Shown here: piece after piece, positions 30,971-31,547 of the stretch
Layout of the letters: each line of letters starts with the position of its first letter
Numbering within the stretch: the stretch's first letter is position 1
Source: Escherichia phage vB_EcoM_phAPEC6
Direction: 5' to 3' (one strand)
DNA length: 64,000 nt
Sequence record: MK817115.1
The notes under the pieces: generated by a model
What the model saw: only the letters and a program-made list of their open reading frames with translations
Told to the model about the DNA's origin: nothing
Database searches by the model: none
Program-made: the position numbers and the translations under genes

Positions 30971-31474
30971 TTATTTTACTTTGACAGTACAGGTTACCTT
31001 TTTACCTTGGAACTCGACTTTTTGAACATATGAAACGTTACCCAAACGATTAACGAATGATTCCATTGCATTAATATTTGCTTGAATTACTGATGCATTA
31101 GTTCCACGTCCTGAAGTTTTCATTACAATATGTACATGTTTTCCTTCATCAAGGAATTTTTCAGCACTTTTTGCTTTAATCTGCAAATCGTGCTCTTGTG
31201 TACCAAAGTTAAATTGAATCTCTTTAATACTCACGGCATTTTGTCGTTGTTTTTTAAGAGAAGCCTTTTCAGCTTGCTTCAACTCATATTTGTATTTGTT
31301 AAGATCTGTAATTTTGACAGCAGGTTCATCACCTGCACCAATAACCACCAAATCCAATCCTTGATTTTCTGCTAAAGTAAGTGCTTTAGAGATTGCCATG
31401 ACCTCACTTGCACCTTCCGTAACAAGACGTACAGTTTTTGCGGTGATTTCGTTATTGGCAATAATAGATTTCAT
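30971..31474 (-). CDS. translation initiation factor IF-3 homolog
   Basis: Aligns along its length to bacterial IF3 (VRLV...GLDLV...KQ..IKEIQF..GT.EHDLQIK...FLDEGKHV). Confidence 0.8.
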
Positions 31475-31518
31475 GTAATAAAAGCTCCAATATGATTTTA
31501 ATGTTTTGTTCGATAGTA

Positions 31519-31547
31519 ATTATAGGATAGAACATTAGTTCTGTCAA
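31519..31547 (-). promoter_or_regulatory. sigma70-type promoter (TTGACA-N17-TATAAT) upstream of IF3 homolog
   Basis: Perfect -35 and -10 hexamers with 17-nt spacer on minus strand, about 40 nt upstream of the IF3 start. Confidence 0.6.

What the first reader, a model, noticed from the sequence alone, without database searches (positions are those of the whole stretch)
30971..31547. Phage-encoded IF3 homolog driven by a consensus sigma70-type promoter
The 167-aa ORF aligns along its full length with bacterial initiation factor IF3 (N-domain, linker and C-domain patterns all recognisable). Immediately upstream on the same strand is a perfect TTGACA-N17-TATAAT. A phage-encoded IF3 expressed early could bias start-site selection or ribosome recycling toward phage mRNAs. 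This is uncommon among phages to my knowledge.
Basis: partly seen in the sequence, partly recalled or inferred. Interest (0 to 1): 0.65.

Follow-up and report, generated by a model that had tools for sequence, protein, structure and literature searches.

The report
Jumbo-phage copy of initiation factor IF3

Summary
Window 30971-31474 (- strand) encodes a 167-aa protein with both IF3 domains above Pfam cut-offs. It passes the NCBIfam infC equivalog model and folds like full-length IF3 seen on the 30S subunit. A perfect TTGACA-N17-TATAAT lies at 31547-31519 (- strand), 44 nt before the ATG. A promoter at this position, the GGAG ribosome-binding site and an ATG start are conserved across the phage clade.

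The window is 99.3% identical to Escherichia phage 121Q, where this gene (gp47) is already annotated as IF3. The family is PHROG 9787, and at least four papers mention it. None of the papers I read tests its function.

Best reading: a working IF3 made from a host sigma-70 promoter. Its AUG start lets it escape the AUU-based autoregulation of host infC. It would raise or replace IF3 activity on host 30S subunits. A bias by start codon towards phage mRNAs is less likely, because excess IF3 barely affects AUG, GUG or UUG mRNAs in vitro.

Extra finding: the gene sits next to a ClpS-like gene here. In other viral lineages IF3 lies in ClpX-IF3-bS21-Hsp20-ClpS clusters, never in the bacterial thrS-infC-rplT context.

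Novelty: already known. Interest: modest.

The parts
30971..31474 (-). IF3 homolog coding sequence (167 aa, ATG start, TAA stop); gp47 of phage 121Q
   Evidence: ORF list and sequence. TIGR00168 110.4 bits. PHROG 9787 6e-71. 100% identical protein in 121Q, SP27, Sharanji and others, annotated IF3. dN/dS 0.07 to 0.17 against clade members where dS could be estimated.
31262..31456 (-). IF3 N-terminal domain (aa 7-71)
   Evidence: Pfam PF05198, E 5.8e-16. R16 aligns with E. coli R25 and K54 with R66, the residues that contact the initiator-tRNA elbow.
31235..31261 (-). Approximate linker (aa 72-80) between the two Pfam domain matches; Lys-rich; part of a predicted long helix
   Evidence: The model has a continuous helix at aa 58-79. 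K70, K74, K75 and Q76 are conserved in the clade.
30980..31234 (-). IF3 C-terminal (30S-binding) domain (aa 81-165)
   Evidence: Pfam PF00707, E 8e-14, profile positions 1-84 of 86. D96, K100 and R123 align with E. coli D106, K110 and R133. Predicted beta-alpha-beta-alpha-beta-beta topology.
31485..31488 (-). Shine-Dalgarno GGAG, 10 nt before the ATG
   Evidence: Sequence. GGAG is invariant in 9 aligned relatives.
31519..31547 (-). Sigma-70-type promoter: -35 TTGACA (31547-31542), 17-nt spacer, -10 TATAAT (31524-31519); -10 ends 44 nt before the ATG
   Evidence: 12/12 match. A promoter scoring at least 9/12 at the same position (34-48 nt before the ATG) is the best hit in 26 of 27 other clade loci.
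31544..31738 (-). Upstream 64-aa conserved hypothetical gene (121Q gp46); its TGA stop (31546-31544) lies inside the -35 hexamer
   Evidence: No Pfam family.
30412..30957 (-). Downstream ClpS-like gene (181 aa), 13 nt after the IF3 stop codon; probably co-transcribed
   Evidence: Pfam ClpS, 24.7 bits (cut-off 23), aa 74-144. Same position in all clade members. No terminator predicted between the two genes.
29795..30340 (-). KTSC-domain protein gene (181 aa; labelled 'DnaJ-like' in 121Q), third gene of the conserved trio
   Evidence: Pfam KTSC, E 6.5e-14. Conserved in all 19 IMG/VR clade loci.

Best explanation
The gene encodes a functional, full-length IF3 that belongs to an old virus-specific lineage of the RaK2/121Q/GAP32-type jumbo myophages.

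Proposed expression (inferred from sequence):
- Host sigma-70 RNA polymerase starts at the consensus promoter 31547-31519.
- The transcript has a 5' leader of roughly 35-40 nt with a GGAG site, then IF3, and very probably also the ClpS-like and KTSC genes.
- The gene starts with AUG. It lies outside the thrS-infC-rpmI-rplT operon. Its synthesis should therefore escape the IF3-dependent repression that bacteria impose on infC through its AUU start codon.

Proposed action (inferred, not tested):
- The protein binds the host 30S platform through its C domain and monitors initiator tRNA through its N domain, as cellular IF3 does.
- This raises IF3 activity above the physiological level of about 0.15 per ribosome.
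- Expected results are more free 30S subunits through anti-association and recycling, and sustained initiation capacity during a long infection.
- If start-codon discrimination is retained, translation of the host's AUU-initiated infC would also be shut off. Phage IF3 would then progressively replace host IF3.

Shown here: homology, fold, conserved residues, purifying selection, promoter and AUG conservation, gene context. Inferred: 30S binding, timing, physiological effect.
For: Identity as IF3:
- Both Pfam domains and the infC equivalog model are above their cut-offs.
- The predicted fold matches ribosome-bound IF3.
- The window protein is identical at 29 of the 32 alignment columns that are at least 70% conserved among 126 diverse IF3 representatives.
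- These 29 include the D106 equivalent (100% conserved in that set), R133, K110 and Y75. They also include R25, described in PMC9723500 as invariant among the bacterial IF3s compared there and important for fidelity.

The gene is maintained:
- dN/dS is 0.07 against the closest diverged relative.
- dN/dS is 0.07 to 0.17 against 6 further relatives. The EJP2 pair was too saturated at synonymous sites to estimate.
- The clade is monophyletic with 100% bootstrap support.
- The gene's GC content is 34.9% against 33.5% for the window, so it is fully adapted to the phage genome.

Expression signals:
- The promoter is a perfect consensus, with 3 exact matches in the window against 0.05 expected.
- It is conserved in position, and ATG and GGAG are present in all 28 clade loci (window included).
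- All 12 near-consensus promoters in the window lie on the coding strand.

Decoupling from cellular regulation:
- None of 80 viral IF3 loci has thrS or rplT nearby.
- The same queries find thrS or rplT at 10 of 11 bacterial loci, which serves as a positive control.

Effect of extra IF3: in vitro, excess IF3 strongly represses only AUU mRNA (PMC5499595).
Against: There is no experimental evidence for any step. All the papers I read that mention phage IF3 say or imply that its role is unknown.

Several E. coli C-domain arginines are not kept. These are residues I recall as important for 30S binding from mutagenesis work, not checked against a paper here.
- Non-basic replacements: R99 to N89, R131 to S121.
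- Lysine replacements: R112 to K102, R116 to K106, R129 to K119.
- Also changed: Y107 to L97 and E134 to G124.
Binding strength or fidelity could therefore differ from host IF3.

The protein is only 33% identical to E. coli IF3. Early timing rests on the promoter type alone, and I found no transcriptome for this phage group. The conserved-column test used the representatives most similar to the query, which biases it upwards.
Confidence: 0.6

Rival explanations
1. Selectivity reprogramming. The phage IF3 differs functionally from host IF3, or simply acts in excess. It changes which start sites the 30S accepts, so that phage mRNAs with AUG and a strong Shine-Dalgarno site win over host mRNAs.
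For: Annotated 121Q genes in this region start with ATG in 87 of 93 cases, and 68 of 93 have a Shine-Dalgarno core. Several residues in the C domain differ from E. coli IF3: R99N, Y107L, R131S, E134G. Mutations of the N-domain tRNA contacts change fidelity in E. coli (PMC9723500).
Against: A 10-fold IF3 excess hardly affects AUG, GUG or UUG mRNAs in extracts and mainly represses AUU (PMC5499595). Start-codon usage therefore cannot separate phage mRNAs from most host mRNAs. The residues tied to fidelity (equivalents of R25, R66 and Y75) are conserved rather than altered. Six of the 93 phage genes themselves use GTG or TTG.
Confidence: 0.2
2. Spare part coupled to proteolysis. Host IF3 is lost during infection, either through host shut-off or through Clp-dependent degradation directed by the adjacent phage ClpS-like protein (ClpX in other lineages). 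The phage IF3 is a resistant replacement. IF3 and the Clp component would then form a functional module.
For: IF3 is followed by a ClpS-like gene in all 19 clade loci from IMG/VR and in all 8 GenBank relatives. A second set of 19 viral loci has (ClpX)-IF3-(bS21)-Hsp20-ClpS. Atu_ph07 and Phosso have ClpX directly upstream of IF3. In total 38 of 80 viral IF3 loci have a ClpS-type gene within about 2 kb.
Against: The two ClpS-linked groups form one clade in the NJ tree, with only 23% bootstrap support. The linkage may therefore be inherited synteny rather than repeated selection. The whole neighbourhood, from RNase H to topoisomerase II, is syntenic in the clade. The 121Q ClpS-like protein is a weak match (24.7 bits; E 0.17 against PDB ClpS). 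At the positions aligned to E. coli D36 and H66 it has P and N. From memory, those two residues form the N-degron pocket. To my knowledge host IF3 is not a known Clp substrate. 42 of 80 viral IF3 loci have no Clp gene nearby.
Confidence: 0.15
3. Not a working phage gene: a decaying passenger gene, or bacterial DNA mis-assigned to a phage.
For: Some 'phage' database records with IF3 hits are clearly bacterial. One example is the contig labelled Acinetobacter phage MD-2021a, which carries thrS-infC-rpmI.
Against: The gene lies deep inside a 348-kb phage genome, between phage helicase, structural and topoisomerase genes. It is intact in all 28 clade loci, is under strong purifying selection, has the phage's GC content and lacks the bacterial operon context.
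Confidence: 0.02

Closest known systems
Bacterial translation initiation factor IF3 (InfC; TIGR00168; Pfam IF3_N PF05198 plus IF3_C PF00707)
   Same: Same two-domain architecture with a Lys-rich linker helix, and the same predicted fold as ribosome-bound IF3. The most conserved residues are kept: equivalents of R25, Y75, D106, K110 and R133.
   Different: Only 33% identical to E. coli IF3. It lacks the 12-residue N-terminal extension of the enterobacterial protein. Several C-domain arginines are Lys, Asn or Ser. The gene has an AUG start, whereas from established knowledge E. coli infC starts with the autoregulatory AUU. It has its own sigma-70 promoter and no thrS, rpmI or rplT neighbours.
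Annotated phage IF3 family: PHROG 9787, including 121Q gp47, RaK2 ORF153, GAP32_313, CBB_318 and Sharanji InfC
   Same: This is that family. The protein is 100% identical to 121Q gp47 and to many Asteriusvirus proteins, and 54-73% identical to the other genera.
   Different: Nothing substantive. This analysis adds the conserved promoter, the ATG start, the selection and residue analysis, and the wider gene-context survey.
Translation genes of huge phages: IF1, IF3, bS21, bS1 (Al-Shayeb et al. 2020, PMC7162821; Mizuno et al. 2019, PMC6375957)
   Same: The same concept of phage-encoded initiation components proposed to intercept host translation. In one viral lineage found here, IF3 sits directly next to a bS21 gene.
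   Different: The metagenomic huge-phage IF3s that hit the query are only about 38-42% identical to it. In the NJ tree, several viral IF3s without Clp neighbours group with Bacteroidales IF3, which suggests separate acquisitions.
Mitochondrial IF3 (mtIF3)
   Same: Another diverged IF3 that still binds a small ribosomal subunit. It appears among the structural matches at TM 0.54-0.56.
   Different: Much more distant (15% identity) and carries extensions. It is relevant only as a precedent that diverged IF3s can retain function.

Membership tests
IF3 / InfC protein family | N-terminal IF3 domain (PF05198) | tested here: met
   58.9 bits against a cut-off of 26.9, aa 7-71.
IF3 / InfC protein family | C-terminal 30S-binding domain (PF00707), full length | tested here: met
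   51.8 bits against a cut-off of 34.8, aa 81-165, profile positions 1-84 of 86. The fold matches 1tig and 2ife.
IF3 / InfC protein family | Whole-protein equivalog model TIGR00168 above the trusted cut-off | tested here: met
   110.4 bits against a cut-off of 60.
IF3 / InfC protein family | Two domains joined by a long, Lys-rich helical linker; overall fold as in ribosome-bound IF3 | tested here: met
   Helix at aa 58-79 in the model, mean pLDDT 83.3. TM 0.70-0.75 to full-length IF3 chains.
IF3 / InfC protein family | Conserved functional residues: R25 and R66 (tRNA elbow contacts), Y75, D106, K110, R133 (E. coli numbering) | tested here: met
   The equivalents are R16, K54, Y63, D96, K100 and R123. 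The roles of R25 and R66 are from PMC9723500.
IF3 / InfC protein family | Basic C-domain surface: R99, R112, R116, R129, R131 (importance for 30S binding recalled from mutagenesis literature, not verified in a paper here) | tested here: inconclusive
   R112, R116 and R129 are replaced by Lys. R99 is replaced by Asn and R131 by Ser. Charge is partly kept.
IF3 / InfC protein family | 30S binding, subunit anti-association and start-codon or tRNA discrimination activity | not testable with these tools
   Needs biochemistry or genetics.
Cellular infC gene organisation | thrS-infC-rpmI-rplT operon context | tested here: not met
   No thrS or rplT within 5 kb of any of 80 viral IF3 loci. The same queries find them at 10 of 11 bacterial loci.
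Cellular infC gene organisation | Non-canonical (AUU-type) start codon allowing IF3 autoregulation (E. coli; established knowledge) | tested here: not met
   ATG in the window and in all 27 other clade loci.
Sigma-70 (RpoD) promoter | -35 TTGACA and -10 TATAAT separated by 16-18 nt | tested here: met
   12/12 match with a 17-nt spacer.
Sigma-70 (RpoD) promoter | Conservation of the element at the same position in relatives whose surrounding DNA has diverged | tested here: met
   In 26 of 27 other clade loci the best hit scores at least 9/12 and its -10 ends 34-48 nt before the ATG. The EJP2 promoter (11/12) is displaced to 79 nt, and L032 scores only 7/12.
Sigma-70 (RpoD) promoter | Mapped transcription start and early timing | not testable with these tools
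   No transcriptome of this phage group was found in the literature library.

The most novel reading that the evidence does not exclude
IF3 is the core of an ancient, vertically inherited viral module: IF3 plus a ClpS-type adaptor, with ClpX, ribosomal protein bS21 and Hsp20 in sister lineages. The module would remodel host translation initiation and proteostasis together. The AUG-initiated phage IF3 would silence the host's AUU-initiated infC and take over the 30S platform, while the Clp components clear host factors. Such a module has not been described in the papers I could search.
Probability: 0.15. Interest if true: 0.65.

Novelty: already known. Interest (0 to 1): 0.3.

Why it matters
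Phage-encoded initiation factors are widely cited as evidence that large phages 'intercept' host translation. None of the papers I read on phage IF3 reports a functional test.

The 121Q and PBECO4 group infects E. coli K-12 (phage Sharanji, for example), where infC genetics, fidelity reporters and ribosome structures are all available. That makes this gene one of the most tractable cases for testing the idea.

The analysis here gives concrete handles for such a test:
- a defined promoter and leader;
- an AUG start that predicts escape from, and imposition of, infC autoregulation;
- a short list of diverged C-domain residues;
- a recurrent IF3-ClpS/ClpX linkage.

As a discovery, however, it adds little. 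The gene, its identity and the general hypothesis are already in the databases and the literature.

Tried and rejected
1. Host contamination or recent capture from E. coli: rejected. The protein is 33% identical to E. coli IF3, has the phage's GC content and sits in phage context.
2. A partial IF3 lacking the C domain: rejected.
3. A chance promoter: rejected by shuffle controls, strand bias and conservation of position.
4. A known RNA regulatory element in the leader, or elsewhere in the window: no Rfam match at gathering thresholds.
5. Finding a donor lineage failed.
   - The word-indexed protein search returned only the phage clade.
   - The exhaustive search gave unlabelled metagenomic relatives at 51% identity or less, apart from three short fragments, some on contigs of 90 to 620 kb.
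   - The first GTDB genome scan, with alignment A3, failed for lack of a conserved stretch.
   - The scan with alignment A2 found only bacterial IF3s 33-45% identical, from unrelated phyla.
6. Start-codon usage as a discriminator between phage and host mRNAs: computed at 87 ATG, 3 GTG and 3 TTG. I judged it uninformative, because IF3 excess hardly affects GUG or UUG.
7. A literature search for C-domain arginine mutagenesis (R99, R112, R116) found nothing usable. Those residue roles are given from memory only.
8. The CBB paper's supplementary files have no match to a promoter name for the IF3 gene (Porf_318).
9. The first bootstrap tree script timed out. It was replaced by a faster NJ with 60 replicates.
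10. My typed-from-memory E. coli IF3 sequence differs from PDB chain 8jsg_A at position 122 at least. Residue mapping therefore relies on the PDB alignment.

Full report

Yes, at exactly the stated coordinates, on the minus strand. Window 30971..31474 (-) is a 167-aa ORF with an ATG start and a TAA stop.

The protein matches every relevant profile:
- Pfam IF3_N, 58.9 bits against a cut-off of 26.9, aa 7-71.
- Pfam IF3_C, 51.8 bits against a cut-off of 34.8, aa 81-165, covering 84 of 86 profile positions.
- NCBIfam equivalog TIGR00168 infC, 110.4 bits against a cut-off of 60.
- PHROG 9787 'translation initiation factor', E 6e-71.

Direct sequence comparison with solved structures finds E. coli, Thermus and Geobacillus IF3 at E about 1e-17. 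An AlphaFold2 model built on 29 homologs has mean pLDDT 83.3. It shows an N domain, a long helix at aa 58-79 and a C domain. Its best Foldseek hits are full-length IF3 chains bound to the 30S subunit: 5lmn_X at E 3.8e-13 and TM 0.70, 9ss1_F3 at TM 0.74, and 8jsh_A from E. coli.

**2. The promoter**

TTGACA (31547-31542), a 17-nt spacer and TATAAT (31524-31519) lie on the gene's strand. The -10 ends 44 nt before the ATG. A GGAG Shine-Dalgarno site lies at 31488-31485.

- Exact matches to this 12-base consensus occur 3 times in the window against 0.05 expected from shuffles.
- With one mismatch allowed there are 12 against 2.05 expected, and all 12 are on the coding strand.
- The window and 27 other loci of the same phage clade were scanned. 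Their IF3 proteins are as little as 52-57% identical to this one.
- In 26 of those 27 the best-scoring promoter reaches at least 9/12, with its -10 ending 34-48 nt before the ATG.
- The exceptions are EJP2, where an 11/12 promoter is displaced to 79 nt, and L032, where the best score is 7/12.
- By comparison, 40% of random 130-nt stretches reach 9/12, 7.6% reach 10/12 and 0.46% reach 12/12. The evidence is the fixed position together with the many 10-12/12 scores.

This is good evidence for a real sigma-70 promoter. The claim that it fires early is an inference from the promoter type. No transcriptome of this phage group turned up in the searchable literature.

**3. What is the window?**

It is 99.3% identical to Escherichia phage 121Q, a 348.5-kb jumbo myophage of the genus Asteriusvirus, and 97% identical to PBECO4, SP27, Sharanji and others. 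The gene is 121Q gp47, annotated 'translation initiation factor IF3'.

It lies in a replication and nucleotide-metabolism region. The local order is RNase H, Dda helicase, a structural protein, a 64-aa protein, IF3, a ClpS-like protein, a KTSC-domain protein, two structural proteins and topoisomerase II. This order is conserved in RaK2, GAP32, CBB, Munch, XbC2, A4, EJP2 and vB_Ec-M-J.

**4. Is the protein likely to work as IF3?**

Conserved residues:
- An alignment was made with 126 diverse IF3 representatives. The window protein is identical at 29 of the 32 columns that are at least 70% conserved among them.
- That set is biased towards sequences resembling the query.
- Kept residues include the equivalents of D106 (100% conserved in that set), R133, K110 and Y75.
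- R16 corresponds to E. coli R25. That residue contacts the initiator-tRNA elbow. PMC9723500 describes it as invariant among the bacterial IF3s compared there and important for fidelity.
- K54 corresponds to R66, and Lys is in fact the commoner residue at that position.

Differences lie in the C domain: R99 to N, Y107 to L, R112, R116 and R129 to K, R131 to S, and E134 to G. From memory, several of these arginines matter for 30S binding in E. coli. I could not verify that in a paper. Affinity or fidelity may therefore differ.

Selection and origin:
- dN/dS is 0.07 against the closest diverged relative.
- It is 0.07 to 0.17 against 6 further relatives. The EJP2 pair was too saturated at synonymous sites to estimate.
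- The gene's GC content (34.9%) matches the window (33.5%).
- The clade is monophyletic with 100% NJ bootstrap support.
- Identity to E. coli IF3 is 33%.
- A motif-based scan of 185,579 species genomes returned only bacterial IF3s 33-45% identical, from unrelated phyla.

This is an old viral gene, not a recent capture from the host.

**5. Regulatory differences from cellular infC**

All 28 clade loci (window included) start with ATG and have a GGAG site.

None of 80 IF3 loci on IMG/VR viral contigs has thrS or rplT nearby. The same queries find them at 10 of 11 bacterial loci, which is the positive control.

In E. coli, infC is translationally autoregulated through its AUU start codon; this is established knowledge. 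In extracts, a 10-fold IF3 excess more than halves translation of an AUU mRNA but hardly changes AUG, GUG or UUG mRNAs. The physiological ratio is about 0.15 IF3 per ribosome (PMC5499595).

Two inferences follow:
- The phage gene escapes autoregulation.
- If the phage protein keeps codon discrimination, it would repress host infC and gradually replace host IF3.

Phage genes here are 87 ATG, 3 GTG and 3 TTG. GUG and UUG are barely affected by excess IF3.

**6. Best explanation and rivals**

- Most likely (about 0.6): a working IF3, made from a host-type promoter without feedback control. It supplements and eventually substitutes for host IF3 on the 30S, which sustains subunit availability and initiation.
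- Selectivity reprogramming (about 0.2).
- A replacement coupled to Clp-directed proteolysis (about 0.15).
- A non-functional or non-phage gene (about 0.02). This is effectively excluded.

**7.

The 80 viral IF3 loci fall into three groups:
- 19 belong to the 121Q/RaK2/GAP32 clade, with the order IF3, ClpS-like, KTSC.
- 19 others have the order (ClpX), IF3, (ribosomal protein bS21), Hsp20, ClpS, and often an exoribonuclease and an IMPDH-like gene. Pfam confirms bS21, Hsp20 and ClpS at 93.9 bits.
- 42 have no shared neighbours. Peptidases M16 and M3, thioredoxin and a 5'-3' exonuclease recur in small subsets.

The jumbo phages Atu_ph07 and Phosso have a bona fide ClpX directly upstream of IF3.

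In the NJ tree the two ClpS-linked groups together form an exclusive clade, but with only 23% bootstrap support. The linkage may be one ancestral arrangement that has been kept for a long time, rather than repeated convergence.

The 121Q ClpS-like protein is a weak ClpS match, at 24.7 bits. At the positions aligned to E. coli D36 and H66 it has P and N. From memory, those two residues form the N-degron pocket. A functional IF3-Clp module is therefore possible but unproven.

**8. What is already known**

- The CBB paper (PMC5259590, 2017) names IF-3 in CBB, GAP32, 121Q, PBECO4 and RaK2.
- Al-Shayeb et al. 2020 list IF1 and IF3 among huge-phage genes that may intercept translation (PMC7162821).
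- Iyer et al. 2021 mention IF3 and the KTSC protein in group 2.2 jumbo phages (PMC7824862).
- The Sharanji paper (2025) says the function of IF3 in phages 'cannot be definitively stated' (PMC11895373).
- 94 of 50,697 phage records give a tblastn hit. A few of these are bacterial contamination.

**9. Verdict**

The finding is already known at the level of annotation and hypothesis.

What this analysis adds is descriptive:
- a conserved promoter, ATG start and Shine-Dalgarno site;
- strong purifying selection;
- a residue map against E. coli IF3;
- decoupling from the infC operon and its AUU control;
- a recurrent IF3-ClpS/ClpX (and bS21, Hsp20) neighbourhood.

Interest is 0.3. Novelty is 'already known'.

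Noticed in passing
window 30412-30957 (-) and 29795-30340 (-): IF3 is followed after 13 nt by a 181-aa ClpS-like protein, then by a KTSC-domain protein that 121Q labels 'DnaJ-like'. The trio is conserved in every clade member. The ClpS match is weak (24.7 bits). At the positions aligned to E. coli ClpS D36 and H66 it has P and N. From memory, those residues form the N-degron pocket, so it may not be a classical N-degron adaptor.
   Followed up: partly
L035-L062 and L082 (for example L044:3761-9407), L012, L013: In a second set of 19 IMG/VR viral contigs IF3 lies in the cluster (ClpX)-IF3-(ribosomal protein bS21)-Hsp20-ClpS-cupin-exoribonuclease-IMPDH. In Atu_ph07 and Phosso, ClpX is directly upstream of IF3. 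I did not see an IF3-Clp linkage mentioned in the papers I read.
   Followed up: partly
window, 12 sites including 13343-13371, 31519-31547 and 44945-44973 (all - strand): All 12 matches to TTGACA-N17-TATAAT with at most 1 mismatch lie on the coding strand, against 2.05 expected. Three are perfect. This looks like a set of genuine host-type promoters scattered through the replication genes and the region of small ORFs.
   Followed up: partly
window 31715-31743 (-): A second near-consensus promoter (TTGACA-N17-TATGAT, 11/12) overlaps the start codon of the 64-aa gene upstream of IF3. TTGAC directly before the ATG is kept in most relatives. The -10 falls in the conserved F-Y-D-R codons. It may be a tandem promoter feeding IF3 or a by-product of coding constraints.
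   Followed up: partly
window 31544-31546 (-): The TGA stop codon of the upstream 64-aa gene lies inside the -35 hexamer of the IF3 promoter (TTGACA). Coding sequence and promoter overlap here.
   Followed up: no
window 27417-27441 (both strands): A 10-bp GC-containing hairpin with T-runs on both sides looks like a bidirectional intrinsic terminator. It is the first predicted terminator downstream of the IF3 unit on the - strand.
   Followed up: no
L014 (CAKLQH020000014.1, 'Acinetobacter phage MD-2021a'): This 'phage' record has fadD, thrS, infC and rpmI, which is ordinary bacterial chromosome. Some very short 'phage' records with IF3 hits (2-7 kb; Listeria, Enterococcus) are probably similar. 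Counts of phage IF3 from databases are therefore slightly inflated.
   Followed up: partly
L067-L094 subset against L097, L103, L104: In the NJ tree several viral IF3s without Clp neighbours group with Bacteroidales and Rikenellaceae IF3s. This suggests independent, more recent acquisitions by other phage lineages, so phage IF3 as a whole looks polyphyletic.
   Followed up: partly
protein cluster of P0038: A 187-aa IF3 relative, 44% identical, occurs on many metagenomic contigs of up to 619 kb. One member is deposited as 'translation initiation factor IF-3 [Escherichia coli]' (HCJ8468052.1) on a 192-kb contig. This is probably an unrecognised jumbo phage rather than E. coli.
   Followed up: no
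window-wide (121Q genes 3-95): Annotated start codons are 87 ATG, 3 GTG and 3 TTG. 68 of 93 genes have a Shine-Dalgarno core within 18 nt upstream of the start codon. No Rfam family reaches its gathering score anywhere in the 64 kb.
   Followed up: yes
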